A DNA stretch of 62,774 nt, the filler included, from Dimargaris cristalligena (lineage: Eukaryota): NCBI GenBank assembly GCA_003614675.1. It is 28 parts of 28 records of this genome, joined end to end, with 100 filler letters (N's around TTAATTAATTAA, not from the genome) between each part and the next. Parts side by side here need not be neighbours in the genome. Positions count along the whole stretch, not along the records: positions 20,363 to 22,514 come from ML004339.1; positions 22,615 to 24,766 come from ML004340.1; 26 more parts are not named here. The stretch is one strand, 5' to 3'. The position numbers and the translations under genes were made by a program. How positions within the stretch are numbered: position 1 is the first letter of the stretch; every line of letters starts with the position of its first letter. The notes beneath the pieces are model-generated. The model made no database searches. It saw only the letters and a program-made list of their open reading frames with translations, and was not told the DNA's origin. Positions 7,080-53,624 of the stretch are shown here, in pieces.

Positions 7080-7664
7080 TATTGGCCCTCCTAATCTAAC
7101 TTAGTCCAGGTTTAGCAATTGTCCATCCTGACTAGGCCATATAGTGCCATATGTAACCTTCCATGGTCACCCCCAGTACTATAGGGTTATTATTTATTAT
7201 ATAACCCTTCTCCTTCTGGCCCCAACACTTTACACTAAAATACTTACCCCGCTGATCCAAGACTCTTCTGGTTCCCATGAGAGTCTTCTAGATATAAAGC
7301 CATCCAGTTGGACTATTTATCTACCTATACCTTAGTTTTAGTAGCATTTCCCTTAGGACCTCCCTATGGAGCTATCCCCATATATATATAACTGGGCCCC
7401 ACTGGGACTGGTTTAATGCCTTAGCTTATTATTTACCCCTTAGTTTACCTTAATAAAACTCTATATATGCTCACCCCCCTTGTACTAACTAGTAAGTGTG
7501 CTTGCTGCATGTCCCTTGCATTTACCTGTACTTATCCTTTATTAGTTAGTACTACAACCCACCCTAATGCTAGCAGTCTGCTTGGCCGAGTCTAAGCCCC
7601 ACCTACTGTTAGAAGCCTATCCTTGGGACTCTTGACTGACTAAGAGTGGATAACACAGGTGACA
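7080..7664 (+). mobile_element. LTR family A, full-length (~585 bp), probably the 3' LTR of a Gypsy element
   Basis: TATTGGCCC...GGTGACA termini, internal TATATATAA box, preceded by a PPT and integrase tail; five copies in the window. Confidence 0.85.
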
Positions 7665-11340: not shown

Positions 11341-11848
11341 AGTCCGCCTTCACGGGGTTGAAAGCCGCCTCCCATTCGTCCATGAACTTGCCCCCACTCA
11401 CATCCTTAGGGAACCCGCCGATGCGTTTGCCCTCGCCAGTAGTTTTAATCGTCTCGATGATGGTAGCGAAAATCTGGGCGTTTTCGGTCGCATCCTTGCC
11501 GCGCCGGAAAACCTGTAAGGGGACTCTCGATGTGACGTCCGCGGAAGGCTGGTTCAGAGCCTCTAGCATCTTACCCTTGTTACTACTGGCCACGAAGTAA
11601 AACTTGGTTGGGGTAATCAGGGTCAGCGTGTTGGGCAATTCGTAGCCGGTGAGCCAACTCTGGAGAGCGGTGGATTTGCGGTAGGGATTGGCGTCCTCGC
11701 CGGCGACGCCCACGGGAACTAGGATCACGTCGGCCTGGTGGTACAGCTCGTCTGGGTCGCCAGCGGCTTTGGTATCCTTCCAATGCCGGAGGATGGCGTT
11801 GGCCCGCTTGTGGAAAGCCTTTGCATCGAATTGCACGGAATCGGCCAT
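11341..11848 (-). CDS. SPT16: FACT complex subunit Spt16, N-terminal lobe (3'-truncated)
   Basis: Motifs FHKR...PYRKSTALQSWLTGYELPNTL...FVASSNKGKMLE...KRIGGFPKD...GKFMDEW match the Spt16 N-lobe. Confidence 0.93.
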
Positions 11849-12809
11849 GGCAGCGACGGTGAGACAGTAACCGATGTAGGGGAGAAAAGCTGGAGAGAGG
11901 TGGTTGGTGACGGATCGACCAAATCAATTATGAGCCGGAGCAAACAGCACTGGCTTTATGAATCGGCGAGTTAACACGTGTATTATACAGTAAAGTATGG
12001 ATCACGGTAGGGGGGACGTAATATAATAGAAATGAACGTGGGGTTGGGAGTTTAGGCATGAGCCAAATGGCAGAAGGGTAATGGTAAATTGAAAACTGAC
12101 GGAGGTAAGTGGGAAAAGGGGGGAGGCGAACAATTAAGAGCAATGTATGAGGATAAGACTCTGCAAAGCCGTCTGTTTTGAAAATCCCTACCGTGGTTAT
12201 TTCAATACAAACAAGCAACCATAAATGTACGGGCCGCTGGTTGGGCTAATCCCCCACTTGAGGGATTTGAAGACTTGAACCGAAAGTGGTGGTGAGTTTA
12301 ACAAGTAACGATGGCCAGTGGGGGCTGAACCACGCCCTGACGTGTAGGTAAGCAATGCATTTTGCCAATGCCCCTCCTCTATGTAACAGTGTGGTGCTAA
12401 TTTGCCCTGGCAATTGAATTCAGCCCTGTCAAAAAAGCTTGGGGTTGTGTAAGAATGCTTCATTGGCAGCAAGCTAGACGGCTGGACAAATGCGCGTGGT
12501 ATGTCCCAATCTTCAGCTCAAAAAAAAAAAGAAAAAACGGGCATTGGCAACTGCCGTTATTGTAATATCAGTTGTAACTCATTTGAAAGGAAACCCAAAG
12601 GCATGAGCCATATAATATAGATTTAAATAGGGCGGGCCACAGGCCCCCAATAAAAAACCTATTGTGGTTTTCCTTCATTTATCAGTACTATTCCTTGTGA
12701 TGTACCATAATGTACTACTATCACTTTATAGAGTCTGGTGAGGCTATGTCTATTACTTACTCTTGCCTAATCAAGGCTACCACATTAACCAATATATTCC
12801 CTTTACTTA

Positions 12810-13382
12810 TATTACCCCACCTAACCATCCTTAATCTGGCCTAGTTAGGCTTGTCAATATATTAGGCCTTATTATACCATATTAGATTTCTAATAGCCAC
12901 ACCTAGCACAATGAGATCATTATATATTATTATAAAATCTCTCCCCTACCTAACCTCTATACCTTTTACACTAATTACTTAAGTGCTAATTAATATCTCT
13001 TCCAGATACCAGTAGCCATCTGGCCAGTTTATCTACCTATACTCTAATCTTGGTAGTATTCCCCCTGGGATCTCCCCTCTCTAGAGTTATCCCCATATAT
13101 ATATAACTAGGCCCCACTGGGACCAGTTAGATAGCTTAGCTTATTCTTACCCCTAGTTTACCCCCAATAAACTCTACATATACTCACCCCCCCATACCAA
13201 CTAGTAAGTATGCCCACTGCATATCCCCTGCTTATACCTGTACTTGGCCTTTATTAGTTAGTACTATACCTATACCTGATGCTAGTAGCCCACTTGGCCA
13301 AGCCTAAGCCCTGCCTACTATTAGAAGCCTATCCTTTACCTTAGGACTCTTGACAGACTAAGAGTAGTTAACCTGGGTAATA
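12810..13382 (+). mobile_element. LTR family A copy, heavily AT-shifted
   Basis: 3' half aligns well with 7330..7664; ends GGGTAATA versus GGTGACA; 5' boundary approximate. Confidence 0.8.
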
Positions 13383-13449
13383 CCCACCTAACCAGAAACA
13401 CATCCAGGATTTTTCTGTTGATGATAATGATAGTGATTTAGATGATGGC

Positions 13450-13500
13450 TGTAAAGAACTGAAATCAAATCCTTGAAAACTGAACTTTATTTGAAAAGAT
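13450..13500 (-). mobile_element. LTR family B, 3' end
   Basis: TGTAAAGAACTGAAATCAAATCCTTGAAAACTGAACTTTATTTGAAAAGAT at contig end. Confidence 0.85.
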
Positions 13501-13701: not shown

Positions 13702-14192
13702 ACCCCCAGCACTATGGGATCATCCTATATGATATAACTATTCCCTTCCTGGACTCCAGAGTTCCCATTAATCACTCCTGGGCTGATCTAACAACTCTTC
13801 CAGTTCCCAGCAGTCTTCCAAGCCCTCACACCCATCTGGTTAGCTATTTTACCCATCAGTAGTCTTAGTAGTACCTTCCTTCAGGGACCTCCCTTTGGAG
13901 TTGTCCCCCATATATATATAACCAACCCCCACTGGGACTGGTTAGATTCCTTAGCTTATTTCTATCCCTCCATTTATCTCAATAAACCCTATATATGCTC
14001 ACCCCCTTATATTGACCAGTAAGTATGCCTACTGCACACCCCTTGCATAGCAGACTGCATAGGCCTTTATTGGTTAGTATTATACCTGTACCTGATGCTA
14101 GTAGCCTTCTTGGCCAAGTCTAAGCCCCACCTACCATTAGAAGCCTACCCTCAGGACTCTTGACAGACTAAGAGTGGCTAACCCAGGTGACA
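13702..14192 (+). mobile_element. LTR family A copy (3' ~490 bp)
   Basis: Aligns with 7169..7664; ends CCCAGGTGACA. Confidence 0.85.
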
Positions 14193-17541: not shown

Positions 17542-17902
17542 TATCAGCCCTCCTAATCTGACTTAATCTGGACCTAATGATTGTCCATCCTTATTAGATC
17601 TTATAGTGCCATATTAACCCTCCCATAGTCACCCCCAGTACTATGGGGTCCTCACTTATTATATAACCCTTCTCCTTCCAGCCCCAATGCTTTGCACGCT
17701 AAACACTCAACTTGCTGATCTAAGACTATTCCAGTTCCCATAACAGTCTTCCCAATGTGACACCATTTGGTTGGATTCTCATCTACCTATACCTTAGTCT
17801 TAGTAGTATTTTCCTTAGGACCTCCCTCTGGAGTTACCCTTGTATATATATAACCAGGCCCCACTGGGACTGGTTCAATTCTTTAGCTTATTCATATCCC
17901 CT
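17542..17902 (+). mobile_element. LTR family A copy interrupted by LTR B
   Basis: Starts TATCAGCCCTCCTAATCTG; homology stops at 17902 where LTR B begins. Confidence 0.85.
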
Positions 17903-18006
17903 TGTGAAAAACTGAGCTCAAATCCTTGAAAACTGAACTTTATTTGAAAAGATAGGTGATAAAAAGGGAAAGGTGATGATAGACTTGCTGTTCCAAGAGG
18001 TGGCAG
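17903..18006 (-). mobile_element. LTR family B, 3' end
   Basis: TGTGAAAAACTGAGCTCAAATCCTTG...CCAAGAGGTGGCAG matches 26892.. and 53992..54156. Confidence 0.85.
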
Positions 18007-20362: not shown

Positions 20363-22514
20363 TCTGGGAGCATCTGGTTCAGTGGCCGGTAGTCATGGCA
20401 TGGTCGGATGTCGGTGAGATTTCCTTGGGCATCCTTTTTGGGGATGATGAACATGGGAGTGTTGAATGCACAGTCGACTGGTGCAATCCCAATGATACCG
20501 TCAGTGAGCCACTGGTCAATCAGCTTGTTCACCTCGGGCTGGAGCTTGTGTGGAATCGGATACTGACATCTGTATGTTGCTTGTCCTGGTGGTGTGGGAA
20601 GACTAATCTCGGCCTCGGGAATCGGACAGGGCTCATGAGGGCTGATAGCCTTGTTCTCATCAAGGAGTTCTTGCAGGTTAGCTAGGATGGATTCCTTGGC
20701 TCTCATGTAGTCAATGTGCTCATCATCAAATGACCGGGTCTGGAGTTCATTGGGGACAACAAGTGGGGTTACCTCATCCAAAATCTGAGGGTGTGCTGCT
20801 GGATAAGTGTGGGGAAGACCGGTGATGTTGATCCCTAAGTGTTGAAAGCTATCTCTCCCAATAATAATGGGAGATCCTTCAAAGTCCTGGAGAACTTCGA
20901 ATGAAACACTGGCAGTGTGTGAGCCACACTTAACCTCAATGGGGTCTGTAATACCAATTCGGGGTTGAGTCATGGCCATAGTGAAACCCTGGATAACACC
21001 AGTCGCAGGTGTAACTGGGATGCAATGTTCATGGCAGAAGGCCTCAAGAATAACAGACTTTGAGGCACCAGTATCCAAGAAGCCAAAAGTTTGGACATCT
21101 CGGACAATAATAGGCATCTCAATGATCTGGTTCTCCTCAATAGAGCCGACTTCATTGACCACTTGCAAAACTCGAATGTTGGCAGCTGGGGTGTATGGTG
21201 TCTTGGGGGCATTCTTCTTAGGACAACTTGATGCATAGTGGCCTTGCGTCTGACACTTGAAGCATGTGACCACAGGACTGGGGGTTCCTGGCTCGTCTGG
21301 TGAACTCGGTGATCTCGCCTGAGAGTTGTTTGGACGTCTGGTCAGGCCTCGGCACTCCTGGGTGGAGTGTGAACTAGACTTGTGGTTGCTGCACCAAGTC
21401 TTTTTGAAAGGAGAGGGAGTAGACGTACTCCTCTGTGGTGTCATCGGTGATGCAATATCCGAATATTGCAGTGCATAGTGGCTGATCGATGCCACTGTCA
21501 CCGGGGAAATAGAGCCATTGTGAATGGCTGTCTCGACATGGAACTTGACCTGTGGTGGAATGGCCCGCAGGAATCGTCTCGCTGCAGTATAGTCAGAAGG
21601 CTCGGTGCCTGCTCTGGACATGAGTACTTGGTACCGTTTGGTGAAGTCACTCAAAGACTCCTTCTGGTGCATGGTGGTGGTCAACAGCTCATCCAGTGCC
21701 TGGTCCTGACTAGCTGGGTCGCCAAACTCTCTAATAAAGAACTCACAGAAGTGTTGGTAAGGCATGTCAAGGTCGACACACTGGATTAACCAACGACTAT
21801 CTTGTAGGTTCAAGCATAGGGGGAGTAAGCGGGCCCAGTGATCATCAAGGACTAATGCACTGGCCCTCAAGGTTAATTCAAACCTATGGAGGAAATTGTC
21901 GGGGTTCGATTCGGTGTTCGCGCCATCTCGGAATCGCGGCAGGTCTCTCGGAACCTGGGTAGAACGCTCGGTGCAGTGGCTATTCTTTTGTTTCTCAGTC
22001 GGAGTCTTCAAAATCGCATTGAAGATCTGGACAGCTGTAGCCTGCGTATCTCGGAGAGTTTCCAAGTCAGCAGTACAATCATCTCGGAGGTCACACCAGT
22101 TTTCCATTTTAGCTTGGTGTTCCTTGCGTCTGTCCCCCTGGTGCATTGGTGTGTCGAACTTGAGTTGAATGTACTGGCTAATCTTATCATTAGCTGCTGT
22201 GATACGGCGGCTGAGTCGTCCAATCAGCTCCTCCGTAGTTTGTGTTGTCGTCGTGGATTGGGTCTGACTAGCTGATGGGCTAGGTCTTTCATCGGCAAAG
22301 TGGACAGATGACAGAGTGGGTTGGGTGTGTAAAAGAGAGGATAATAAAAGAAAGAAACTTAGTACTCCAGTGTATAGGTTGTATCTTACGGCTAATACAA
22401 CCAAATACAAATATGTAAATAGGTAAGAAAAGAATAATCAAAAGTGAGAAAGGGTTTGGTGGGCATACCCCCGATTACTCAGCGTCTTATCAGCAGCCCA
22501 ATCAATACAGGATT
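20363..22514 (-). mobile_element. Ty3/Gypsy gag-protease-start of RT, copy 1 (uninterrupted frame)
   Basis: Gag core, knuckles CSNHKSSSHSTQEC and CFKCQTQGHYASSC, protease FLDTGAS, RT start FNTPMFIIPKK...RPCHDYRPLN. Confidence 0.95.
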
Positions 22515-22614
22515 NNNNNNNNNNNNNNNNNNNNNNNNNNNNNNNNNNNNNNNNNNNNTTAATTAATTAANNNNNNNNNNNNNNNNNNNNNNNNNNNNNN
22601 NNNNNNNNNNNNNN

Positions 22615-24766
22615 TCTGGGAGCATCTGGTTCAGTGGCCGGTAGTCATGGCATGGTCGGATGTCGGTGAGATTTCCTTGGGCATCCTTTTTGGGGATGAT
22701 GAACATGGGAGTGTTGAATGCACAGTCGACTGGTGCAATCCCAATGATACCGTCAGTGAGCCACTGGTCAATCAGCTTGTTCACCTCGGGCTGGAGCTTG
22801 TGTGGAATCGGATACTGACGTCTGTATGTTGCTTGTCCTGGTGGTGTGGGAAGACTAATCTCGGCCTCGGGAATCGGACAGGGCTCATGAGGGCTGATAG
22901 CCTTGTTCTCATCAAGGAGTTCTTGCAGGTTAGCTAGGATGGATTCCTTGGCTCTCATGTAGTCAATGTGCTCATCATCAAATGACCGGGTCTGGAGTTC
23001 ATTGGGGGAAACAAGTGGGGTTACCTCATCCAAAATCTGAGGGTGTGCTGCTGGATAAGTGTGGGGAAGACCGGTGATGTTGATCCCTAAGTGTTGAAAG
23101 CTATCTCTCCCAATAATAATGGGAGATCCTTTAAAGTCCTGGAGAACTTCGAATGAAACACTAGCAGTGTGTGAGCCACACTTAACCTCAATGGGGTCTG
23201 TAATACCAATTCGGGGTTGAGTCATGGCCATAGTGAAACCCTGGATAATACCAGTCGCAGGTGTAACTGGGATGCAATGTTCATGGCAGAAGGCCTCAAG
23301 AATAACAGACTTTGAGGTACCAGTATCCAAGAAGCCAAAAGTTTAGATATCTCGGATGATAATAGGCATCTCAATGATCTGGTTCTCCTCAATAGAGCCG
23401 ACTTCATTGACCACTTGCAAAACTCAAATGTTGGCAGCTGGGGTATATGGTGTCTTGGGGGCATTCTTCTTAGGACAACTTGATGCATAGTGGCCTTGCG
23501 TCTGACACTTGAAGCATGTGACCACAGGACTGGGGGTTCCTGGCTCATCTGGTGAACTCGGTGATCTTGCCTGAGAGTTGTTTGGACATCTGGTTAGGCC
23601 TCGGCACTCCTGGGTAGAGTGTGAACTAGACTTGTGGTTGCTGCACCAAGTCTTCTTGAAAGGAGAGGGAGTAGACGTACTCCTCTGTGGTATCATTGGT
23701 GATGCAATATCTGAATATTGCAGTGCATAGTGGCTGATCGATGCCACTGTCACCGGGGAAATAGAGCCATTGTGAATGGCTGTCTCGACATGGAACTTGA
23801 CCTGTGGTGGAATGGCCCACAGGAATCGTCTCGCTGCAGTATAGTCAGAAGGCTCGGTGCCTGCTCTGGACATGAGTACTTGGTACCGTTTGGTGAAGTC
23901 ACTCAAAGACTCCTTCTGGTGCATGGTGGTGGTCAACAGCTCATCCAGTGCCTGGTCCTGACTAGCTGGGTCGCCAAACTCTCTAATAAAGAACTCACAG
24001 AAGTGTTGGTAAGGCATGTCAAGGTCGACACACTGGATTAACCAACGATTATCTTGTAGGTTTAAGCATAGGGGGAGTAAGCGGGCCCAGTGATCATCAA
24101 GGATTAAAGCACTGGCCCTCAAGGTTAATTCAAACCTATGGAGGAAATTGTCAGGGTTCGATTCGGTGTTCACGCCATCTCGGAATCGCAGCAGGTCTCT
24201 CGGAACCTGGGTAGAACGCTCGGTGCAGTGGCTATTCTTTTGTTTCTCGGTCGGAGTCTTCAAAATCGCATTGAAGATCTGGACAGCTGTAGCCTGCGTA
24301 TCTCGGAGAGTTTCCAAGTCAGCAGTACAATCATCTCGGAAGCCACACCAGTTTTCCAGTTTAGCTTGGAGTTCCTTGCGTCGCTCCTCCTGGTGCATTG
24401 GTGTGTCCAACTTGAGTTGAATGTACTGGCTAATCTTATCATTAGCTGCTGTGATACGGCGGCTGAGTCGTCCAATCAGCTCCTCCGTAGTTTGTGTTGT
24501 CGTCGTGGATTGGGTCTGACTAGCTGACGAGCTAGGTCTTTCATCGGCAAAGTGGACAGATGACATAGTTGGTGGGGTATGTAAAAGAGAGGATAATAAA
24601 AGAAAGAAACTTAGTACTCCAGTGTATAGGTTGTATCTTACGGCTAATACAACCAAATACAAATATGTAAATAGGTAAGAAAAGAATAATCAAAAGTGAG
24701 AAAGGGTTTGGTGGGCATACCCCCGATTACTCAGCGTCTTATCAGCAGCCCAATCAATACAGGATT
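22615..24766 (-). mobile_element. Ty3/Gypsy gag-protease-start of RT, copy 2 (nonsense mutation)
   Basis: Collinear with copy 1, same 2152-nt length and end points; ATG at 24566; CGA->TGA stop at 23424..23426. Confidence 0.95.
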
Positions 24767-25665: not shown

Positions 25666-26890
25666 TCAATTGAGTTCTGAATGAGTTTGTTCTAATAAAC
25701 TCAGTGGCTTAGCTACTGGGGAGGTCATGGGAATATTTGGTACTTGCGGGTTGGGGATCCTTGCAGGACGACTGGGGAAATCACCAGACCAGTCCTGAGG
25801 ACATCCTGGTGACCTGGGCCTGGGAATTAGTGCTGCTGAAGTTTGTAATTCTTGGGGAGGTGGCACAACACTCTCCTCCCCTAAGACCCAAGTATACCTA
25901 CAAGGGAGATGCCAGGCCTGAAGATTCACAGTAGTTACAGTAGCCTTCTTCAAATGACTAGCATAGACTGGTGTGGGGACGATTTCTGCAGATGGTGTCA
26001 TTAGAATATAGGTATTATATCTCAAGATTCAGTGGATGCAAAATGGACTAAACCATTTTAGCTGAAGACTACAGGCAGTGGGGTTGCAGACAAGAACAGC
26101 TTCATCAACTGAATAATGAGGGGACAAGGGAAATTTCAGTTTGAATTTTGCTAATACCTGTTTTACAATTTGCTGGAAAATATTATAAACTTGCTGTCAA
26201 TGCCATTGCAACTACTGGAGGTGTGGCTTAGGTTCTTGATGGAGGGCTATATTGACATCTGGTCTTTGTACTGGTATGCTATCACCAGGTAGGTAGGGTT
26301 GAACCCCATATAATAAAAAAAATAGTGATGTGCCAGTTATGTGGGATATGCATGTGCAGTATGAGAACAGTGCAGCCTGCAGGTGGATGTCCCAGTCCCA
26401 ATGTGGGACTCTAACTGACCTTAAAAGGATACCTTTAAGTTCCTGATGGAACCTTTCCAGTTGACCGTTTGATTGTAGATGATATAAAGAAGTCCTTAAA
26501 TAGTGTAGGCACTAGTGGTTGGTGAAATCAGCTAAAACTTGGCTCATAAATTGGGAACTATAATCAGATAAAATTTCTTTTGGGGCACCAAATATTGTAA
26601 TAATGTCTTCATAGAGAAAGGCCACTAAAGTGGGTGCTGTAGTCTCTGGAACAGCCTGGCAGATTTGGAAACCTGTGATATGATCTATGGCTATGATAAT
26701 ATACTGGTTTCCCCATGGTATTTTTGCTAATAGACCTACAAAATCAACAACCCACTGTTCAAATGGAGCAATGCCTGGGGTGGGTATGGTGGGTTCTACT
26801 GGTGTATTAGGGTATGCCCTTCAAGTGACCTGGCATTTAGGACATTCCTTTATGTATTATCAAACATCAGCATTCCATTTTGGCCACTAG
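25666..26890 (-). pseudogene. Degenerate Ty3/Gypsy integrase (different family)
   Basis: Minus strand reads ..CPKC..PFEQWVVDFVG..IAIDHITGF..FGAPKEILSDYSSQFMS..YHLQSNGQLERFHQEL..WDIHLQAALFSY..LKWFSPF, with several stops. Confidence 0.9.
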
Positions 26891-33857: not shown

Positions 33858-34958
33858 TTGTTTGAAATACAAACTTCACAATTTAAATAAGTAAAAAGAG
33901 AATTTTGGTCAACATTTATGATGCCATTTTTAGCAGCCTGCTTGAGGGTATCGAAATTAATATGGCCAAGAGAATAATGGACCTCCAAAAGGGAAGGAGG
34001 TTTAGGAATTTCAATAGCTAAATTTGCCATTGAAGTATGAGGATATTTAACTGAAAAAGGGTATGAAGAGTGTATTTTGTTGACTTGGAGAAGGGGAGTA
34101 TTCCCCTCTTGAATGGTACAACGGCCTTGATGGAAGGTGAATTTAATTCCCCTCTCATCACTGGCTGGTACAGAAAGTAGATTATAACCCAAAGTGGGGC
34201 AGTGGCCCATATTATATAGGGTTAATCGGTGAGTATTATTGGATGGATCTAGGATGTCAAGCTTGACTGTCCCATAACCCAAGATTGATAACTCTTTTCC
34301 ATCTGCCAATATTAAATGGCGAGTTTCTTGTACATAATTATCAAATAAAGTACAATCAGGGCAATAGTGGTAGGATGCACCTGAGTCAATAAACCAAGTT
34401 GACTTCGGATATTTGCCATCCTTCACTTTGAGTGCATGTTCAGGAATTTTAAGTACTAGTTGGGCTTGTTCAGCCTGGCTTTCCTTTTTCCCTTTATGCA
34501 GGGGGTTTCGAAAACATTCATCAGTGGAGTGTCCACTAGTTTTATGAATAGCACAGTATGAGGCATCACCCTCTTTGTGTGTTTTTAACCCCCTTACTCT
34601 TACCCTTCTTACCTTTAAACTTGCCCAGGTTAGTTTTTACAGTCATGGCGGACTCGAACATTGTTTTCGGTGTCGCCTCCCGATTGGCCAGGAATTGTTC
34701 TGCCTCAATAAATGATTGAACTACACTGTCGAAAACGAAAGAGTCCAGGTCCCGGGTATGCCATTGGCTGACTGTCAAGTGGAATCTTTCATCCACTGCC
34801 TGTAGAAATAGGAGAGTCAGTTGTTAGTCACTCGTAAGGTCGTATTTCTTGAGTTCCGCATCGAGAGATTGAATCTTCATGGCCAGTTGATGGATGGATT
34901 GGTTTCCCTGATGGATTCGATATAACTCAGAGTATAGAGTTAGGACTTTGGCCGTAGG
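33858..34958 (-). mobile_element. Ty1/Copia gag - Zn knuckle - protease - pre-integrase fragment
   Basis: CAIHKTSGHSTDEC, WFIDSGASYH, NLLSV, HYSLGHINF...CEVC; one stop (~34825) and a frameshift near 34570. Confidence 0.92.
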
Positions 34959-35998
34959 TGGTTTGGCCAACAAGCCTATTTAGACCATTTTCAAAAATTT
35001 GGGTCTCCTGCTCTGGTTATGGTTCCTAAAAACCAATGTGGTAAACTTGACTGTATTACCCAACAAATGTTGTATCTTGGTCCTTCCTCTACTGAGGGTA
35101 CCAACAAATACTATAATCCTATTACAAAACGTGTAATACAAAGTAGGGATGCAAAATTTATTGAGGATAATCTATTTCCAGATGTCCGGGAGCAGCTTGA
35201 TACCTGTCTCCATAACTTGTATATCTCTACTACTATATCTCCTATTCCCCCCACCCAGTCCGCAGACATACCAACCACCATTACAAATAATACTAAGGTA
35301 GTGGAAGTTGTTGATCACGTCGCCGACAGTCCTGATTATCTATCTGATCAAGGGGAATTTACGGATGCCACTGACGATGGCCCTAATCCATCCACAAACC
35401 TAGGCCAACTGGTATCTTCAAATATATCACCTCTGGAATTAAATAATCGTCCATGTCGTATAGCTGCCACTAAGGCTCTCAATGGCATCTGAAATACCAT
35501 ATTACCATGCCCTTATCATAGGAACCAAACTCGGGATCAGGTACTACTTGCTATCAATGGCCCGAGTTCCTACCATGCTGCCATCACCAGTGACGACCAG
35601 ATTGAATGGCAGGCTGCCATAAATCGTGAACTCCAATCTATGGAGGATAACAAGGTCTGGGAACTTGTTCCACGTCCCACTGGTCACAAAGTAATCCCCT
35701 GTCGATGGGTTTTTGTTACCAAACTACACCCTGATGGGTCTGTAGATCGCTATAAGGGCCACCTAGTAGTAAAAGGTTTTTATCAAAGGGAGGGGATAGA
35801 CTACCATAATACCTACGCACCTGTAGTTAGATATCCAACCATTCGTATGGTATTGGCCTTAACAGCCTATTACCATATGGACATCCATCAAATGGATGTC
35901 AAGACTGCTTTCCTCTATGGTGATTTGGAGGAAACAGTTTATATGGAACCACCTGAAGGTTTAAACTTACCTGAAGGGAACTTAGTTTGTACAATCAT
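34959..35998 (+). mobile_element. Ty1/Copia post-integrase SH3 region and reverse transcriptase fragment
   Basis: WFGQQAYLDHFQKFGS..KLD..YLG..SRDAKFIE; VWELVPRP..RWVF..RYKGHLVVKGFYQREGIDY..DVKTAFLYGDLEETVYMEPPEG; TGA at 35490. Confidence 0.93.
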
Positions 35999-37331: not shown

Positions 37332-38078
37332 TTACCAAATTTTGCTCTTAACAGCATTTGCAGCACCAGTGACTGAGTTCTTAACGGCATTGGCGGCACC
37401 GGCGCCCATTTTATAGGCAGAATTTGCGGCACCAGTAACCGTGTTCTTGGCGGTATTGACGGCACCGGCGCCCATTTTATAGGCAGTATTTGCGGCATTT
37501 CTGCCCGTATTTACCACAGCCATGGTGGCTTGGCCGACTTTTCCTACCGCGTTAGTAGCGATTTGACCGGCCTTTCCCGCCATGGTCACAGGTTTATTTA
37601 CCTTCACCACAGCAGCGGGGTTTTTCACCGTCACGGCTGATTTGGCACTATGTTCGTTCAGTGCGGCTGCGCTTGCAGCGGTGCCAGTGCTCTTCGAGGG
37701 CGTGGGCTTAACACTATCTTGTTTCTTGGCGGGTTCGAGCGAACTTTTCCTCACGGTGCTTGCGAGCATAGATTGCGTAGGGGGGGATATAGGCGTATTT
37801 TGTTTTGCGACGGGTTTGGATGAGCTGGGGAGGAGAGGCTTAACGGAGTTTTTCGAACTATTTTTAATGTTTGCCGCGGTGGCTTTGACGTCATTGGCCG
37901 CATTTCGAGCGCCTGTTTTGAGGTTATGGGCGGTTTGTTTTACGGCGGATGTAGTTTTTTTGAAAATAGTTGACACTGATTCCCTGGTAGCAGGATATGG
38001 CTGTGGTGTGGGGGAGGCCGCCACAAGGATGGCACCGATCAGGGTGATGGAGACGAGCAGTTGTCTAAAGTTAACCAT
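37332..38078 (-). CDS. 248-aa secreted Ala/Lys/Thr-rich protein with LEA-like 11/22-aa repeats
   Basis: Signal-peptide-like MVNFRQLLVSITLIGAILVAA-SP; C-terminal AANTAYKMGAGAVNTAKNTVTG / AANSAYKMGAGAANAVKNSVTG (66-bp duplication). Confidence 0.8.
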   Translation of the reverse strand: MVNFRQLLVSITLIGAILVAASPTPQPYPATRESVSTIFKKTTSAVKQTAHNLKTGARNAANDVKATAANIKNSSKNSVKPLLPSSSKPVAKQNTPISPPTQSMLASTVRKSSLEPAKKQDSVKPTPSKSTGTAASAAALNEHSAKSAVTVKNPAAVVKVNKPVTMAGKAGQIATNAVGKVGQATMAVVNTGRNAANTAYKMGAGAVNTAKNTVTGAANSAYKMGAGAANAVKNSVTGAANAVKSKIW

Positions 38079-47289: not shown

Positions 47290-49110
47290 ATGTTCCAAAA
47301 GGCTATGATGGCTATCCCTATTGTCTACCAGCAAACTCCGTCGGCTCGTCGAGCCAGCCCTGCCGAAGCCACCTCTGCCCAATCTCGCTCACCCCAGGCA
47401 GCCATGGACTTCCAAAAAACTCTTCAACATCAACATCAACATCCCCAACCACAACCCGCCTCGTCTATAGCAACTGTTACCAACCCCAATTTATTCATAG
47501 GAGACTCCACCCCCAGCAAGAACAAGCCCGTGGGGGTCTCCGATTCACCCGCTCCGCTCCTATACGCTGGTCGGCCCGACCCGCGACCCAGCCTGGACAG
47601 CCGTCCCGACATGGCAGAATCGATCCCCGAACCCCCTGCTTTCCCTCCGGCCCTAAAGCGGCGCATCAAGAAATCGCAGTCGTCATCCTCAGACTTGGGT
47701 ACGACCGGCCGGCTCGGCGATCCTTACTACCAATCATCCCTGGAGCGTGATTCATGTGGCTTCTGCTTCGGTTTGTGGATGTTTATTGCCGTTATTTCGG
47801 CGATTGTACTGAGTGGGGTCGTTTGGCACCGGCAGGAGTCGTTCCGGGTCGGCTACTGTGCCGAACAAGATCCTAGCACGCCCTGTCTGTCAATGGGCCA
47901 CTGGGGCCGGCTCACCCTCGAAGACTTCACCCACCGACCCCAAAATTGGACTAAACTGTGGGAAACGGTGCAACCCAGCTGCGTGCCTTGCCCCCATCGG
48001 GCCCGGTGTTCCAGTGGGAATATCACCAGCTGTGACGATGGCTTCATGGTCCGACCCCACCCCTTGGCCAACCCCGTGTTCCCCTTCCCCGACCAATGCA
48101 TCCCCGACACGGTCAAGCTGGCTAAAGTGGAGCAGGTGAGCGACGAAATCTTCCGGGTTCTGAGTGACCGCCTCGGCCAACTCCAGTGTAACTGGCGTCA
48201 GTACAACCGTCTCATCCGGGACCAGGATGAAGTGGCCCTCGTGGAGGCGAGCGGTCTTTCGGAGCCCCTGTTGTTCGCCCAGATCTATGCCCTAAAGGAA
48301 CCGGATGTGTCGGATTCGGAATTTCAGGAGGTGTGGCAGTTGGCCCTTCGGAACATTAAACAGTGGGACGACCGCCTCGAATACGTGCTAATCGAAACCG
48401 GCCCGGACGAAGAAACCCTCTTCCTGGTGTCGCGGATTGCCAATTTGCCCATTCTGTGCCAGGTGAAGAACGGTGTCTTTTACCTCCTATCGACGTACCT
48501 ACGTGAATTTCTGGGCACGATGGTGGCCCTGGCGGTAGGCTTGTTTATTCGCGCGCGGTACCGTCGGTACATTCGCGAAAGTCAGCTGGTGGCCGAATTG
48601 GTCGAAGCGTCGTTCCAACGGCTGGTCCAGCAGGAGCATCTACACTGCATCGATCCCGTCCAGCACCCTTCCAACGCTCTTTCAGTTACCCAGCTCCGTG
48701 ATGTCCTCGTGACCCCCCAATTTGCGACTGGGGCCGGCGCGCGCCACCGCTTGTGGGAACAGGTCCGGAAACGGGTGGAGCACAATGCGAATGTGCGTGT
48801 CCGCATGACACAGGTAAAAGGGGAGCCACACCGGGTGTGGGAATGGATCGGAACGGCCCCATCTTTTAATGGCGGTGGTGCGGGAGTGTCGGTGAATCAG
48901 GGATCTAATGCCCCGGCCCGTGCGGACGGCCCATCCACCCCGGGTGGGGCCGGTAATAGCCCCATCGTAACTCCGACAGTCGGTGACTATCGCCCCGCCG
49001 GGGGGGACTCCGACGCCCCGGAACATAATGGTGGTCTCTCGGATATGGCCCAGCGTGGACGGCCAGACTATTTGCTGGCGGCCGGAGGGGCTGATGGATC
49101 TAGAGGATAG
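47290..49110 (+). CDS. Inner nuclear membrane Src1/Heh/MAN1-family protein (MSC domain), probably 5'-truncated
   Basis: Disordered N-part, TM1, luminal GYC...CVPCPHRARC...CDDGF...HPL...CIPD, TM2, C-terminal LRD...LWEQVRKRVEHNANVR...GEPHRVWEWIG. Confidence 0.9.
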   Translation: MFQKAMMAIPIVYQQTPSARRASPAEATSAQSRSPQAAMDFQKTLQHQHQHPQPQPASSIATVTNPNLFIGDSTPSKNKPVGVSDSPAPLLYAGRPDPRPSLDSRPDMAESIPEPPAFPPALKRRIKKSQSSSSDLGTTGRLGDPYYQSSLERDSCGFCFGLWMFIAVISAIVLSGVVWHRQESFRVGYCAEQDPSTPCLSMGHWGRLTLEDFTHRPQNWTKLWETVQPSCVPCPHRARCSSGNITSCDDGFMVRPHPLANPVFPFPDQCIPDTVKLAKVEQVSDEIFRVLSDRLGQLQCNWRQYNRLIRDQDEVALVEASGLSEPLLFAQIYALKEPDVSDSEFQEVWQLALRNIKQWDDRLEYVLIETGPDEETLFLVSRIANLPILCQVKNGVFYLLSTYLREFLGTMVALAVGLFIRARYRRYIRESQLVAELVEASFQRLVQQEHLHCIDPVQHPSNALSVTQLRDVLVTPQFATGAGARHRLWEQVRKRVEHNANVRVRMTQVKGEPHRVWEWIGTAPSFNGGGAGVSVNQGSNAPARADGPSTPGGAGNSPIVTPTVGDYRPAGGDSDAPEHNGGLSDMAQRGRPDYLLAAGGADGSRG

Positions 49111-49525: not shown

Positions 49526-51655
49526 TGTTGTTAGCCTCGGAAACAGGGAAAGGGCCAGCCAAGTCAATGGCAATATGATCGAAAGGTTTGGTTGCTGTGA
49601 TGGACTTGGTAGCTTCTTGAATTGTTCGGTGGTTGTTGAATCGAAGGCAGAGCAAACACTGTTTGAGTGCATTGGCAACATCTGATCGCAGATTGGGCCA
49701 GTCAAAACCATCTTGATGAATAGCTGCAACAGTTGCAGTAATACCAAAGTGGCCTCGTAAGTGGTTTCGCTCAATGATGCCAGGTCGGAGGTGCTCATCA
49801 GGTAAGATGAGGGCTACAGTCTCGGTTGTAGGCTTGTTGGAAACAGTCAGGGTTCGAATGGTAGGCAGAGCCTCACCCCCCTCTGAAGAGGTAAAAAATC
49901 TAGACAAGTGGTCAGGGAGGATATTCTCAATACCAGGTCGATGGATAACAGCAAAATCATAATCAAAGAGAATCTCAGACCAGGAGATCAACATAGGGTT
50001 CAAAACCTTCTGGGAGTGGAGGTATCTCAGAGCCTTGTGATCAGTGAACAAAGTGAAGTGGGTGCCCCAGACATAATGATGAAAATTTCAAAGAGCAAAG
50101 ATGACAGCCAGGAGTTCATATCGTGTGACACTATAATTTCTCTCAGAGGCAGTGAGACTTCTTGCTTGAAAGGAATTGAACTTGATGTCTGTGGAATTGG
50201 GGTCACTATCAGCTGTCTGGTACAAGACAGCACCAATACCTTCATTCGATGCATCCATGGCAATGCAGAAGGGCTTCGAAAAGTTGGGAAAGGTCAGTGA
50301 AGGGTCAAATACAAGATGGCCTTGAGCTGCTCGAATACTGCACTATGTTCTGGGGTCCAAACTGCCTTGAGGTTATCACTGGTTTGCAGGGTGTCAAGTG
50401 GAGCTGTGAGCTTGGAAATCATGGGTATGTGTTGCCTGAAGTAGTTGAAGAAACCCAAATAATGTTGGAGCTGTTTAGTGGTCATCGGAGTGGGCCAGTC
50501 CCTGACATTACTGATCTTGCCAGGGTCAACATGCACACCTTGCACATTGATTCGAAAGCCTAGGAGCTTGATCTCAGTCTTGACAAAGTGATACTTGGAC
50601 ATGTTGAGAATGAGCTGTGCCTCATTGAGTTTGTTGAGTACTTACAACAGGTGGTCTTGGTGGTCTTTGAGGGTCAGTGAAAATACCATAATGTCATCCA
50701 TAAATGGAATAGCAAAAGGTAAATCATACAAAAGCCATTGGATCACTCACTGGAATTTAGACAGAAGGCTCTTGAGGCCAAATGGGGCTCGGTGGAAGAT
50801 ATACTGGATACCATTCCAGGTAAAAGCAGTCTTGTGCTGGTCGGCTGGGACAATTGGGAACCGGTAGTAGGCTGACTTGAGATCAAGGATTGAGAAGTAG
50901 GCTGCCCCTGATAAAGAGTTGAAAATATCTGCAATGAGGGACAGGGGAAAGGAATCATCTGGGAGCATCTGGTTCAGTGGCCGGTAGTCATGGCATGGTC
51001 AGATGTCAGTAAGATTACCTTGGGCATCCTTTTTGGGGATGATGAATATGGGAGTATTGAATGCACAGTCAACTGGTGCTATTCCAATGATACTATCAGT
51101 GAGCCACTGGTCAATCAACTTGTTCACCTTGGGCTGGAGCTTGTGGGGAATTGGATACTGATGTCTGTATGTTGTTTATCCTGGTGGTATGGGAAGACTA
51201 ATCTTGGCCTCGGGAATTGGACAGGGCTTATGAGGGCTGATAGCCTTGTTCTCATCAAGGAGTTCTTGCAGGTTAGCTAGGATGGATTCCTTGGCTCTCA
51301 TGTAGTCAATGTGCTCATCATCAAATAACTGGGTCTGGAGTTCATTGGGGGAAACAAGTGGGGTTACCTCATCCAAAATCTGAGGGTGTGCTACTGGATA
51401 AGTGTGGGGAAGACCGGTGATGTTGATCCCTAAGTGTTGAAAGCTATCTCTCCCAATAATAATGGGAGATCCTTCAAAGTCCTGGAGAACTTCAAATGAA
51501 ATACTGGCAGTGTATGAGCCACACTTAACCTCAATGGGGTCTGTAATACTAATTCGGGGTTGAGTCATGGCCATAGTGAAACCCTGGATAATACCAGTCA
51601 CAGGTGTAACTGGGATGCAATGTTCATGGCAGAAGGCCTCAAGAATAACAGACTC
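49526..51655 (-). mobile_element. Ty3/Gypsy pol (protease-RT-RNase H-integrase start), copy 3 of the 20363 family, degenerate
   Basis: 50958..51655 aligns with 20363..21060; LDLKSAY, KTAF, PFGL, FMDD, DASNEGIGAVL, TDHKAL, H-H-C-C, IDLAGP; several stops and a frameshift near 50300. Confidence 0.95.
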
Positions 51656-53624
51656 TCAACNNNNNNNNNNNNNNNNNNNNNNNNNNNNNNNNNNNNNNNN
51701 NNNNTTAATTAATTAANNNNNNNNNNNNNNNNNNNNNNNNNNNNNNNNNNNNNNNNNNNNAGGACATTGTCTGTCACAGAAGCTCCCCTGTTTATCAATA
51801 CTTGTCACTATATTACGCAGACCCCTAGGACCAACCTTGCATGCTGTATAGTCAGCTATGTCGAATTTGCAAGTTGCCAGTAGCAGATCCTCTTTATTGA
51901 AGAATATGTTCCCGCGTATTTTTTATCCTATCCTGTTTCACCCAATTATGTTAGTTTATTCTACTATCATAAGACTATTCATGTTAGCTACTTATGTTTT
52001 ACCCCATTGAAATTACAGTTTAATAAGACGTACCACCTAGAGGCACCTACTATCCTCTAGCTGCTTTCTTCCCTTACTTCCAGTTTTATTTTCTTTATGT
52101 CCTTAGTATTCCAACACTCTTTACGGATTAGTTATTTTTTATAAAATAATAGAAAAGAAAAAGTAGTAAATTATAAGTTTGGTATTCCAATCGCAATAGG
52201 ATTTTTATTAAGTATTCAATATTGGACTATTAAAGCACCTTATTTTTTTGATGTACATTTTCTATACTAAGCTCACTGTGATTGTGTGGTGCTGCAGAGC
52301 ATGGGTAGCTGAAAAGATTAATTAATTAACTGGTTCATTTACTAATTACAAACCATTTATCTCTGTTGTCGTGCTTAATAATCTAAAGGATTAAAGCCGA
52401 CTAACTATGAAGGATTAGGTGTCATCATCACCTAGTTCTATCAAGGAGGCGCGGGAATTCGGCCTTGTTGAAGGATCAGCATCCTTCAGCCATTCCCGCC
52501 ACTCGATTCACATATTCTATATATCACCTTCATTATATACCTGTCTATTATTAGTTATCATTTATATTACTATCTAGTAGCGTTTTCCAGCATCTTCTAT
52601 ACCGGTTTGATGCCTTTACCATTAGTCTGCTCGGCTATATAAAGCCGAGCCAATTCCTATAGTTACTCTTCAGTTAATTACCATTTATTCTATACCCCCT
52701 TTTATAGTTAACTCAATCTATTAGATATCTCCCTTATTCTTATCTATAAAGCGCCCTTCGCATCAACTGCCTGTGTGTTAGCTCTTGTAAACTTGTCCGA
52801 AGCGTAGCCATTTAGCATATTGTGGAATTTAGCCTACAACATCTGTAGATCGCAGTTTAATTAATCAAATATCTCCATTTAAATATGTAAAAACAACTAT
52901 CTATCATATCCTCTTCATTTTATATCAAATTCCTGACAATATTTTCAATATCCATCAATTAATGGAAATAAATCCAGCCAAATTTACTATGCCGTCAGCA
53001 TGGTTACCAATGATTTGTATCACTGTTTATTTTGGTATTTTATCATTATATATATATATTCTTCACTTCTTAGCTTTGGCTATTACCAATTGACTTAGAT
53101 ATATTGAAGTTTTGATTTCTATAAATGAATTGCCTCACCATCAATGATTATTTTAAGCCCAATTGAGAGACTGTTTTGTACTTCTCCATAAATGCTGCTA
53201 CTCCCTTTTCATCAGGTATTTAAACCTCAAGTACTGGCCAAACCAGGAGAAGTCAAGGAAAGCAAGCCAGGTCTAAGTGAAGTGTGATGAAGCAAGTTAT
53301 ACCTCCACCCAGTCATTTACAATTCTATTCCATAAATATTTATTATTCTTATAAACCCCAAATTAGCCTATTTATAATCCTTGCACATTATTTCAATTCT
53401 CTTATATTTTATCTAGTCTATTGTTTTTCATATCACTCAAATCTTTTTGTAAATAAATTTATAAAGAACTACAATATCCTTCTTACTGTAAAGTGCCTCT
53501 ACAACCCCACCATTGGTCCAACTACAACCTGCTAATAGTGGTGTCCCTAATAGTAGTTCAAACCTCCTGCCAAGTTTCCTGGCTTTGCCCCTTAATGATG
53601 TAATATAATTTGAATAGCAGATTG

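What the first reader, a model, noticed from the sequence alone, without database searches (positions are those of the whole stretch)
20363..24766. RIP-like C->T hypermutation at CpG AND CpA, restricted to repeats, shown by three copies of one Gypsy element
Seen: copies at 20363, 22615 and 50958 differ almost only by C->T/G->A. CpG examples are CTCGAA/CTCAAA (creates the stop at 23424), TCTCGCC/TCTTGCC, and GGACAAT/GGATGAT (reciprocal decay of one CG). CpA/TpG examples are GGCACC/GGTACC, ACTGGC/ACTAGC, GTGTAT/GTATAT, CTCATG/CTTATG. Older repeats are nearly CG-free and TA-rich, while KRE33, SPT16 and the MAN1-family gene are CG-rich. Known: Neurospora-type RIP favours CpA->TpA and is documented mainly in Dikarya; CpG methyl-deamination alone does not give the CpA component. 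Inference: a homology-directed mutagenic defence, or strong CG+CA methylation-coupled decay, is active here. If the host is an early-diverging fungus this would be a poorly described system.
Basis: partly seen in the sequence, partly recalled or inferred. Interest (0 to 1): 0.82.

Follow-up and report, generated by a model that had tools for sequence, protein, structure and literature searches.

The report
C-to-T decay of fungal retrotransposon copies
Three separately assembled copies of one Gypsy retrotransposon from the early-diverging fungus Dimargaris cristalligena differ mainly by C-to-T changes at CG and CA sites, which points to methylation-linked or RIP-like decay of repeats in a lineage where this is barely described, although the evidence is small.

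Summary
The window is not contiguous DNA. It is 28 contigs of about 2.1 kb joined by artificial 100-nt spacers. The finding spans two contigs, A (20363-22514) and B (22615-24766). Copy C (49526-51660) overlaps them for only 703 nt.

The observation largely holds. Polarised on an inferred ancestor, B and C each carry 27 C>T/G>A changes. Pooled rates are CpG 24/170, CpA 22/474 and CpT+CpC 8/759. CpA versus CpY gives OR 4.6 (95% CI 2.0-10.3, p=1.7e-4). The changes are strand-symmetric and look neutral.

"Almost only" is overstated for A-B, where 28 of 45 differences are C>T in one direction.

The host is Dimargaris cristalligena (Zoopagomycota). Contig B carries the gene model RKP33136.1.

CpG is hit harder than CpA, and the Gypsy copies fail the Neurospora-type RIP indices. 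An older repeat family shows only a 1.2-2.3-fold CpA excess.

Dependence on homology, the DNMT repertoire and the baseline in single-copy DNA could not be tested. The best reading is methylation-coupled decay at CG and, more weakly, CA. A true RIP-like process is not excluded. Index-based hints of RIP in Zoopagomycota are already published (PMC11105155).

The parts
20363..22514 (-). Contig A: the least-decayed copy of a Ty3/Gypsy element. It holds a 691-codon open frame (gag, zf-CCHC, aspartyl protease, start of RT) that runs off the contig. It lacks the ATG that B's gene model uses.
   Evidence: open frame; Pfam RVP, zf-CCHC, Retrotrans_gag; only 3 own C>T changes; CTG where B has ATG.
22515..22614 (.). 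Artificial 100-nt spacer (N44 + TTAATTAATTAA + N44). It is one of 27 identical spacers that join the 28 contigs.
22615..24766 (-). Contig B: a copy of the same length, colinear with A. It has 27 C>T/G>A, 4 T>C and 9 transversions relative to the inferred ancestor. It carries the NCBI gene model RKP33136.1 of D. cristalligena.
23424..23426 (-). Stop in B created by CGA>TGA (CpG class).
23343..23345 (-). Second stop in B, created by CAA>TAA (CpA class).
49526..51660 (-). Contig C: the most decayed copy (protease, RT, RNase H, integrase zinc-binding domain). It has 7 in-frame stops (5 TGA, 2 TAA) and one frameshift. Whole-contig CpG o/e is 0.22.
   Evidence: In one search, two TGA stops align with Arg in 10 of 11 and 11 of 11 distant relatives.
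50958..51660 (-). The 703-nt overlap of C with A and B. It holds 27 C>T/G>A changes (CpG 13/32, CpA 11/124, CpT 2/86, CpC 1/104), 1 T>C and 4 transversions.
12998..13500 (.). A copy of an older LTR-like repeat on the same contig as SPT16. CpG o/e is 0.00, TpA o/e 1.7-2.0 and TpG/CpA o/e 0.66-0.69. The SPT16 part (11341-11940) has CpG o/e of about 1.0.
7085..7664 (.). Another copy of the old LTR-like repeat. Further copies lie at 1815-2171, 13702-14192 and 17542-17903. Pairwise identity is 74-82%.
47290..49107 (+). MAN1/Src1-type inner nuclear membrane protein gene (CpG o/e 0.90). It was used to place the host.
   Evidence: PF09402; Dimargaritales hits, and 36 of 36 residues identical to a partial D. 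cristalligena protein.

Best explanation
Contigs A, B and C are three separately assembled, non-adjacent copies (or graph paths through copies) of one Ty3/Gypsy LTR retrotransposon of Dimargaris cristalligena.

Shown:
- The dead copies B and C have accumulated C>T changes at the DNA level, on both strands equally.
- These changes are concentrated at CpG (about 15 times the CpT/CpC rate) and, less strongly, at CpA (about 4.6 times). ACAC/GTGT looks like a hot spot.
- The changes look selectively neutral.

Inferred:
- Silenced repeat copies carry 5-methylcytosine, mainly in CG context with a weaker CA component.
- Methylated cytosines deaminate faster than they are repaired, so copies drift from CG to TG/CA and on to TA, while unmethylated genes keep their CpG.
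- This is slow methylation-coupled decay of the kind proposed for CpG signatures in basidiomycete TEs. It is not a burst-like Neurospora-type RIP.
For: Rates and symmetry:
- CpG is the top class in both copies: 11/138 in B and 13/32 in C. CpA is second: 11/350 and 11/124. CpT+CpC is at background: 5/569 and 3/190.
- C>T versus G>A is 12 vs 15 in B and 13 vs 14 in C, and a runs test shows no clustering by strand.
- The synonymous share of the C>T changes matches the neutral expectation: CpG 11/24 vs 33%, CpA 8/22 vs 31%.

Composition:
- CG-poor contigs keep a TpG/CpA excess (o/e 1.03-1.41 where CpG o/e is 0.06-0.22), which is the classic deamination footprint.
- On contig c06, CpG o/e falls from about 1.0 in SPT16 to 0.00 in the repeat. 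In between lies a zone with TpG/CpA o/e of 1.30-1.32.
- At 19 inferred ancestral CpG sites of the old repeat family, the states are CG 1, TG 27, CA 33 and TA 10.

Literature:
- 5mC almost exclusively in repeats is reported for the related Linderina pennispora (PMC11258239, passage).
- CpG-only TE signatures go with Masc2/DNMT1-type enzymes (PMC4352252, section 12).
Against: - CG-maintenance methylation alone does not explain the CpA excess or the ACAC hot spot (7/39 vs 15/435, p=0.001, a post hoc test).
- CA methylation in this lineage is assumed, not known.
- No methylation data and no DNMT inventory for D. cristalligena could be obtained. Three literature searches found no paper with either; one search did list 13 papers holding both terms.
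- Some copies of the old LTR-like repeat show TpA/ApT of 1.6-1.9 with CpA/TpG depletion. That looks more like RIP than like plain CpG decay.
- The sample is one TE family with 54 polarised C>T events.
Confidence: 0.5

Rival explanations
1. A true RIP-like genome defence. An enzyme-driven, repeat-triggered C>T mutator (a DNMT1-superfamily protein such as a DIM-2-like or RID-like enzyme) acts on duplicated DNA in D. cristalligena, with the preference CpG > (A)CpA(C).
For: - The CpA>TpA excess appears in two copies independently and, more weakly, in a second repeat family (singletons 13/156 vs 24/634, OR 2.3, p=0.03).
- C has lost 41% of its CpG at only about 0.7% background divergence.
- Inside the old LTR-like repeat on c06, TpA/ApT is 1.93 and (CpA+TpG)/(ApC+GpT) is 0.74. 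The flank shows only CpG decay.
- CpA signatures in fungal TEs were found only in species with RID/Masc1 (PMC4352252).
- A dual CpA+CpG signature is known in Tuber (same paper).
- Index-based RIP hints and proteins with RID-like architecture are reported in Entomophthorales (PMC11105155).
- RID-type methyltransferases are reported in Glomeromycotina, citing Bewick 2019 (PMC8298701, passage).
Against: - CpG, not CpA, is the main target.
- The Gypsy copies have a composite RIP index of -0.63 to -1.00.
- A is almost untouched although 98%-identical B exists.
- Background changes are not negligible: 13 of 40 in B.
- In the old family, TA-creating variable sites (33) barely exceed AT-creating ones (27), and YpA vs YpY polymorphism gives OR 1.3, not significant.
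- A kingdom-wide k-mer screen found RIP-like signatures only in Ascomycota, although it dropped scaffolds under 50 kb (PMC12543289, abstract and section 9).
- No dependence on homology was shown.
Confidence: 0.28
2. No targeted system at all. This is the ordinary neutral mutation spectrum of the fungus (AT-biased, CpG-hypermutable, with a sequence-context effect at CpA) acting on any unconstrained DNA. Genes keep CpG through selection.
For: - The lower confidence bound of the CpA/CpY ratio is 2.0.
- The old repeats give 1.2-2.3. As I recall it, that is within the range of context effects seen in other eukaryotes; this was not checked here.
- The C>T changes behave neutrally.
- No single-copy neutral baseline could be measured.
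Against: - Non-coding DNA next to genes keeps CpG. The KRE33 contig upstream region 45054-46453 has CpG o/e of 0.81-0.95, so CpG loss is not general to non-coding DNA.
- Non-CpG C>T (30/1233 G/C sites) is far above T>C (5 events over the compared A/T sites).
Confidence: 0.15
3. An artefact or a misattribution. The contigs could be mosaic graph paths or amplification chimeras from a single-cell co-assembly. Alternatively, the Gypsy contigs could belong to the culture host rather than to Dimargaris.
For: - A and B have identical ends and lengths, and C ends exactly where B starts to diverge from A.
- B's C>T changes are uneven: 2 of 27 lie in the first 703 nt (p=0.003).
- Several contig ends share exact 52-55-nt overlaps.
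- The assembly is a co-assembly of amplified single-cell libraries (PMC6784888, passages).
- Dimargaritales are grown with host fungi (PMC9866270, passages).
- No contig links the Gypsy family to a Dimargaris gene.
Against: - Divergence of 2-5% with a CpG>CpA>CpY hierarchy, stop codons and 13 non-C>T changes is far beyond what I recall of amplification error.
- Mosaicism would blur which copy carries a change. It would not blur the mutation spectrum.
- The depositors kept contig B in the D. cristalligena record with a gene model.
- The old repeat family with the same CpG loss is physically linked to SPT16 on c06.
Confidence: 0.05
4. APOBEC-like editing of retrotransposon cDNA during reverse transcription.
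For: The element is a retrotransposon, and the changes are C>T/G>A.
Against: cDNA editing gives G>A on one strand only. Here both strands are hit equally (12 vs 15 and 13 vs 14) and the two kinds are interleaved. There is also no 5'-T or 5'-C preference overall.
Confidence: 0.02

Closest known systems
Neurospora-type RIP (RID- and DIM-2-dependent, premeiotic)
   Same: Differences between repeat copies are C>T/G>A on both strands, stop codons are created, and there is a real CpA>TpA component.
   Different: CpG is hit three times harder than CpA. The affected Gypsy copies fail the RIP indices. The damage is mild (2-5%) and comes with sizeable background changes. The host lies outside Dikarya. 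Enzyme, timing and dependence on homology are unknown.
Dual CpA + CpG signature in Tuber melanosporum TEs (Amselem et al. 2015, PMC4352252)
   Same: Two dinucleotide signatures occur in the same TE copies, which that paper reads as two mechanisms (RID-type and Masc2/DNMT1-type).
   Different: Tuber is a Pezizomycotina species with a RID/Masc1-like gene. In Dimargaris no such gene has been looked for.
TpCpG hypermutation in Pucciniomycotina (Horns et al. 2012, PMC3318451)
   Same: CpG-centred, RIP-like C>T decay of Gypsy/Copia copies outside Ascomycota.
   Different: There is no 5'-T preference here: TCG 9/67, ACG 3/21, CCG 7/57, GCG 3/19. There is an added CpA component.
Index-based RIP signal in Entomophthorales (Zoopagomycota), eLife 2024 (PMC11105155)
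   Same: The same phylum, and the same suggestion that RIP may exist outside Dikarya. By that paper's kind of criterion (composite index above 0), 36 of 196 windows of 500 nt qualify here.
   Different: That work used composition indices only. Here the evidence is alignment-based, polarised and context-normalised, but it comes from a tiny sample. Gene-bearing windows also pass the index test, so that criterion is lenient.
Repeat-confined 5mC in Linderina pennispora (Kickxellomycotina), reported via PMC11258239
   Same: A related lineage with cytosine methylation limited to repeats. It is the likely substrate for CpG decay.
   Different: Only a citing passage was read. The context of 5mC there (CG versus CA) was not seen, and nothing is known for Dimargaris.

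Membership tests
Canonical RIP (Neurospora type) | Differences between repeat copies are overwhelmingly C>T/G>A. | tested here: met
   27 of 40 changes in B and 27 of 32 in C are C>T/G>A. Direction asymmetry is 28 vs 7 and 29 vs 3. The dominance is weaker than in classic RIP.
Canonical RIP (Neurospora type) | CpA is the preferred target dinucleotide. | tested here: not met
   CpG 24/170 (14.1%) vs CpA 22/474 (4.6%), OR 3.4, p=1.7e-4.
Canonical RIP (Neurospora type) | RIP indices in the affected DNA: TpA/ApT high and (CpA+TpG)/(ApC+GpT) low. The thresholds 0.89 and 1.03 are recalled, not taken from a call. | tested here: not met
   Gypsy A, B and C give 0.64/1.31, 0.69/1.32 and 0.57/1.57. Only some old LTR-like copies pass: c06 1.93/0.74 and c04 1.62/0.90.
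Canonical RIP (Neurospora type) | Duplicated DNA is hit and unique DNA is spared. | tested here: inconclusive
   CpG o/e is about 1.0 in gene DNA and 0.00-0.22 in repeats. The CpA bias could not be measured in single-copy DNA.
Canonical RIP (Neurospora type) | A RID/Masc1 orthologue is present, and the process is premeiotic. | not testable with these tools
   No genome or proteome is held. Bewick et al. 2019 is not held.
5mC deamination decay of CG-methylated repeats (DNMT1/DNMT5 type) | CpG>TpG/CpA is the dominant change, with CpG depletion and a reciprocal TpG/CpA excess in repeats only. | tested here: met
5mC deamination decay of CG-methylated repeats (DNMT1/DNMT5 type) | No excess of C>T outside CpG. 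| tested here: not met
   CpA vs CpY gives OR 4.6 (CI 2.0-10.3). Without ACAC the OR is still 3.4, p=0.007.
5mC deamination decay of CG-methylated repeats (DNMT1/DNMT5 type) | 5mC is actually present on these repeats. | not testable with these tools
No methylome paper for Dimargaris turned up.
Pucciniomycotina TpCpG hypermutation | 5'-T preference at mutated CpG. | tested here: not met
   Pooled rates are TCG 0.134, ACG 0.143, CCG 0.123 and GCG 0.158.
APOBEC-type cDNA editing | Strand-asymmetric G>A on the element's sense strand. | tested here: not met
   12 C vs 15 G in B and 13 vs 14 in C. Runs-test z is 0.66 and 0.20.
Ty3/Gypsy LTR retrotransposon (the element itself) | gag with a zinc knuckle and an aspartyl protease, and RNase H before the integrase. 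| tested here: met
   RVP, zf-CCHC and Retrotrans_gag (below its cut-off) on A. RT_RNaseH is followed by Integrase_H2C2 on C. 1155 relatives at E<=0.001. LTRs were not identified.

The most novel reading that the evidence does not exclude
Dimargaris cristalligena has a repeat-triggered C>T mutator with the preference CpG > (A)CpA(C). It would work without a Pezizomycotina-type RID. This would be the first alignment-based, context-normalised evidence for a RIP-like genome defence outside Dikarya. It would imply either that such mutators predate the Dikarya or that they arose more than once.
Probability: 0.22. Interest if true: 0.75.

Novelty: new member of a known kind. Interest (0 to 1): 0.45.

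Why it matters
RIP and RIP-like hypermutation shape genome size, gene duplication and effector evolution in fungi. They are generally treated as a Dikarya trait, mostly an ascomycete one, and a 2025 kingdom-wide screen reached that conclusion after dropping fragmented assemblies.

A polarised CpG-plus-CpA C>T signature in a kickxellomycotine mycoparasite suggests that repeat-directed cytosine damage reaches deeper into the fungal tree. It also suggests that non-CG cytosine methylation, or a related deaminating activity, may exist in Zoopagomycota. That lineage is usually described as 6mA-rich and 5mC-poor.

The question can be tested directly with public D. cristalligena assemblies and a methylome. 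At present the evidence rests on three 2-kb contigs.

Tried and rejected
- Whole-genome search: no genome is held.
- Earlier findings of this scan: nothing found by place, words or sequence.
- More copies of the element:
  - The word-based protein searches, 'longer' and 'near', found no close copy.
  - The metagenome scans by protein and by an exact 34-mer found nothing.
  - The HMMER representative search found only the gene model on contig B, plus relatives at 30-34% identity.
- The ESM Atlas gave only generic retroelement clusters and no taxonomic help.
- tRNA and Rfam scans of the window found nothing.
- Parsimony polarisation in the old repeat family is unreliable. Apparent T>C singletons (72) outnumber C>T singletons (47) because of saturation.
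- Aligning distant polyproteins to C's stops resolved only two of them, both Arg, read as CGA>TGA.
- APOBEC-type editing was rejected on strand symmetry.
- A TpCpG preference was rejected.
- Bewick et al. 2019, with its DNMT genotypes by lineage, is not held.
- Supplementary tables that may list RID/DNMT counts or RIP scores for D. cristalligena could not be opened. These belong to PMC5751038, PMC12543289 and PMC6784888.


Full report
**What the window is**

The 62,774 bases are not one stretch of a chromosome.
- They are 28 contigs of 2171 down to 2116 nt, in order of falling length.
- The contigs are joined by 27 identical 100-nt spacers (N44, TTAATTAATTAA, N44).
- Several contig ends share exact 52-55-nt overlaps, as expected for the ends of a de Bruijn graph assembly.

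The finding's span, 20363-24766, is therefore two unlinked contigs and a spacer.
- Contig A is 20363-22514 and contig B is 22615-24766. Both are 2152 nt.
- The third copy, C, is contig 49526-51660. It overlaps A and B over only 703 nt (50958-51660 against 20363-21065).

**Host**

- The MAN1/Src1 gene on contig 47290-49425 finds its best relatives in Dimargaritales: Tieghemiomyces 67%, Dimargaris xerosporica 62%, Dispira 57-58%.
- Its first 36 residues are identical to the end of a partial D. cristalligena protein.
- A full HMMER search with A's open frame found one close hit (94%). It is RKP33136.1, 'hypothetical protein BJ085DRAFT_34727 [Dimargaris cristalligena]', on a contig of 2152 nt.
- tblastn maps that protein onto contig B as a gene model spliced around the stops.
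- The window therefore comes from a D. cristalligena assembly. I infer it is the co-assembly of amplified single-cell libraries (PMC6784888, passages read), because the BJ085DRAFT locus tag matches my recollection of that project.
- The host is a kickxellomycotine zoopagomycete and not a Dikarya species.

**The element**

- A carries a 691-codon open frame on the minus strand, with Retrotrans_gag (below its cut-off), zf-CCHC and RVP.
- C carries RT_RNaseH followed by Integrase_H2C2. That order is typical of Ty3/Gypsy.
- B has two stops: CGA>TGA at 23424-6 and CAA>TAA at 23343-5.
- C has seven in-frame stops and one frameshift.
- A lacks the ATG that B's gene model starts from, so A is not a proven master copy. 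It is only the least decayed copy.

**The observation**

- A and B differ at 45 of 2152 sites with no indel: 13 C>T and 15 G>A (A to B), 7 reverse transitions and 10 transversions.
- A and C differ at 38 of 703 sites, 29 of them C>T/G>A.
- I inferred the ancestor as A, except at five sites. At those sites either B and C agree against A, or a reciprocal CA/TG pair implies an ancestral CG.

| Lineage | C>T/G>A total | CpG | CpA | CpT | CpC | T>C | Transversions |
|---|---|---|---|---|---|---|---|
| B (2152 nt) | 27 | 11/138 | 11/350 | 3/289 | 2/280 | 4 | 9 |
| C (703 nt) | 27 | 13/32 | 11/124 | 2/86 | 1/104 | 1 | 4 |
| A | 3 | – | – | – | – | – | – |

Pooled over B and C:

| Context | Events/sites | Rate |
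|---|---|---|
| CpG | 24/170 | 14.1% |
| CpA | 22/474 | 4.6% |
| CpT+CpC | 8/759 | 1.05% |

| Comparison | OR | 95% CI | p |
|---|---|---|---|
| CpA vs CpY | 4.6 | 2.0-10.3 | 1.7e-4 |
| CpG vs CpA | 3.4 | 1.8-6.2 | 1.7e-4 |

- The CpA excess is significant in each copy alone: B p=0.017, C p=0.004.
- Within CpA, ACAC/GTGT stands out at 7/39 against 15/435 (p=0.001). This is a post hoc test.
- Without ACAC, CpA still exceeds CpY (OR 3.4, p=0.007).
- No 5'-T preference exists at CpG.

**Nature of the process**

- C>T and G>A are balanced and interleaved: 12 vs 15 in B and 13 vs 14 in C, with runs-test z of 0.66 and 0.20. This excludes single-strand cDNA editing.
- The synonymous share of the C>T changes equals the share expected if every such site were equally mutable: CpG 11/24 vs 33%, CpA 8/22 vs 31%, CpY 3/9 vs 37%. 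The changes are therefore neutral decay of dead copies and not divergence of active lineages.
- Polarity is supported by the 28:7 and 29:3 direction asymmetries and by the open frame in A.

**Caveats on the 'copies'**

- A and B share exactly the same ends.
- C ends at 21065, exactly where B begins to diverge from A.
- Only 2 of B's 27 C>T changes lie in the first 703 nt (p=0.003).
- The contigs may be mosaic graph paths through more than three genomic copies. This does not alter the spectrum, but it forbids statements about individual loci.
- No contig links the Gypsy family to a Dimargaris gene, and Dimargaritales are grown with host fungi (PMC9866270, passages). Host origin cannot be formally excluded, although the depositors kept contig B in the record.

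**Repeats versus genes**

- Whole-contig CpG o/e is 0.85-0.90 for the KRE33 and MAN1 contigs. It is 0.06-0.12 for four CG-poor contigs, one of which holds an integrase-core relic.
- On contig c06, CpG o/e is about 1.0 over SPT16. It falls through a zone with a TpG/CpA excess (1.30-1.32) to 0.00 inside an old LTR-like repeat. There TpA o/e reaches 1.7-2.0 and TpG/CpA o/e is 0.66-0.69.
- Non-coding DNA upstream of KRE33 keeps CpG o/e at 0.81-0.95. CpG loss is therefore not a general property of non-coding DNA.

**Older repeats**

Five copies of the LTR-like family (74-82% identical) were aligned.
- At 19 inferred ancestral CpG sites, the 71 states are CG 1, TG 27, CA 33 and TA 10.
- Pyrimidine polymorphism next to an invariant 3' base is YpA 23/106 against YpT+YpC 28/160 (OR 1.3, p=0.43).
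- Singleton C>T changes give CpA 13/156 against CpY 24/634 (OR 2.3, p=0.03). Parsimony is unreliable here, however.
- TA-creating variable sites (33) barely exceed AT-creating ones (27).
- Pooled old pairs give YpA 16.2%, YpT 11.1% and YpC 9.6%, but these pairs are not independent.
- The CpA excess is thus modest, 1.2- to 2.3-fold, outside the young Gypsy family.

**RIP indices**

- The Gypsy copies score TpA/ApT of 0.57-0.69 and (CpA+TpG)/(ApC+GpT) of 1.31-1.57, giving a composite index of -0.63 to -1.00. That is far from RIP.
- Of 196 windows of 500 nt, 36 have a composite index above 0. Several of those are gene-bearing windows.
- Only the c06 copy of the old repeat passes stricter limits, with 1.93 and 0.74. 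The limits are recalled from the literature and come from no call.

**Literature**

- CpA signatures in fungal TEs were found only in species with RID/Masc1. CpG-only signatures were found in basidiomycetes with a Masc2-type enzyme. Tuber shows both (PMC4352252, abstract and section 12).
- Pucciniomycotina show TpCpG hypermutation (PMC3318451, abstract).
- A 2025 kingdom-wide k-mer screen found RIP-like signatures only in Ascomycota, but it used scaffolds over 50 kb only (PMC12543289, abstract and section 9).
- In Entomophthorales (Zoopagomycota), composite-index analysis suggested RIP outside Dikarya, with stated caveats, and found proteins with RID-like architecture (PMC11105155, passages).
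- RID-type enzymes are said to occur in Glomeromycotina (PMC8298701, passage citing Bewick 2019).
- 5mC confined to repeats is reported for Linderina pennispora (PMC11258239, passage).
- A search for Kickxellomycotina together with repeat-induced point mutation and three searches on Dimargaris and methylation or methyltransferases found no paper describing RIP, 5mC or DNMTs in Dimargaris.
- Supplementary tables that might hold such data could not be opened.

**Verdict**

The pattern is real. It is statistically supported in two copies, and it lies in an early-diverging fungus.

It is best read as DNA-level, methylation-linked C>T decay of silenced repeats, dominated by CpG with a genuine but smaller CpA component (confidence 0.5). 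A true repeat-triggered RIP-like mutator remains possible (0.28). An untargeted mutation spectrum (0.15) and an artefact or misattribution (0.05) are less likely.

The finding does not meet the defining features of Neurospora-type RIP that could be tested. It also does not fit pure CG-methylation decay.

The evidence base is small: one family, 54 polarised events. The decisive analyses are a genome-wide polarised spectrum, a neutral baseline, a DNMT inventory and a methylome. All are simple with the public genome but were not possible with the tools available here.

Noticed in passing
window 2172-2271 and 26 further sites every ~2.25 kb: There are 27 identical 100-nt spacers (N44 + TTAATTAATTAA + N44) between 28 contigs sorted by falling length. 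Any inference from adjacency in this window is void.
   Followed up: yes
contig ends, e.g. 6811-6865 vs 44899-44953, and 6815-6866 vs 13449-13500: Several contig ends share exact 52-55-nt overlaps, often in reverse orientation. This looks like de Bruijn graph junctions at a short terminal repeat of an element found on contigs c04, c06, c08, c12, c20, c24 and c25.
   Followed up: partly
20363-22514 vs 22615-24766 and 50958-51660: Among CpA sites, the tetranucleotide ACAC/GTGT is hit at 7/39 against 15/435 for other CpA (p=0.001, post hoc). That rate is as high as for CpG. It alternates purine and pyrimidine, as CpG runs do.
   Followed up: partly
22314 / 24566: B has an ATG (used by the NCBI gene model RKP33136.1) where A has CTG, so the 'intact' copy A lacks that start codon. 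The 22089-22327 region holds clustered multi-base differences unlike the rest of the contig. It may derive from another sublineage or from gene conversion.
   Followed up: partly
33858-35998: This is a Copia-type contig. Pol_BBD and gag_pre-integrs lie on the minus strand (33860-34636). SH3_retrovirus and RVT_2 lie on the plus strand (34944-35996). The parts face opposite ways. This could be two nested copies or an inverted chimera of the kind that whole-genome amplification produces.
   Followed up: no
26515-26820: A fragment of an integrase core (rve, E 9e-9) lies in a contig with CpG o/e of 0.12. The CG-poor contigs are at least partly retrotransposon relics.
   Followed up: partly
60659-62774: This contig holds many internal direct repeats of about 130-260 nt at 70-83% identity. 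CpG o/e is normal (1.06) and TpA o/e is low (0.60). It is repetitive DNA that has not lost its CpG, unlike the TE relics.
   Followed up: no
38339-40477: A 713-codon open frame fills a whole contig and ends in the first 26 residues of an ABC_tran domain. It is probably the N-terminal membrane part of an ABC transporter. CpG o/e is 0.98.
   Followed up: no
37335-38162: A 276-codon frame, rich in Ala, Ser, Thr, Asn and Lys, has an internal 66-nt-period repeat (87.5% identity) and no Pfam match. The opposite strand is also open for 192 codons.
   Followed up: no
12141-12740: Between SPT16 and the old repeat lies a zone with intermediate CpG o/e (0.41-0.56) and a TpG/CpA excess (1.30-1.32) but low TpA. 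This is CpG decay without the TpA gain seen inside the repeat. It could be methylation spreading into the flank, or an unrecognised part of the element.
   Followed up: partly
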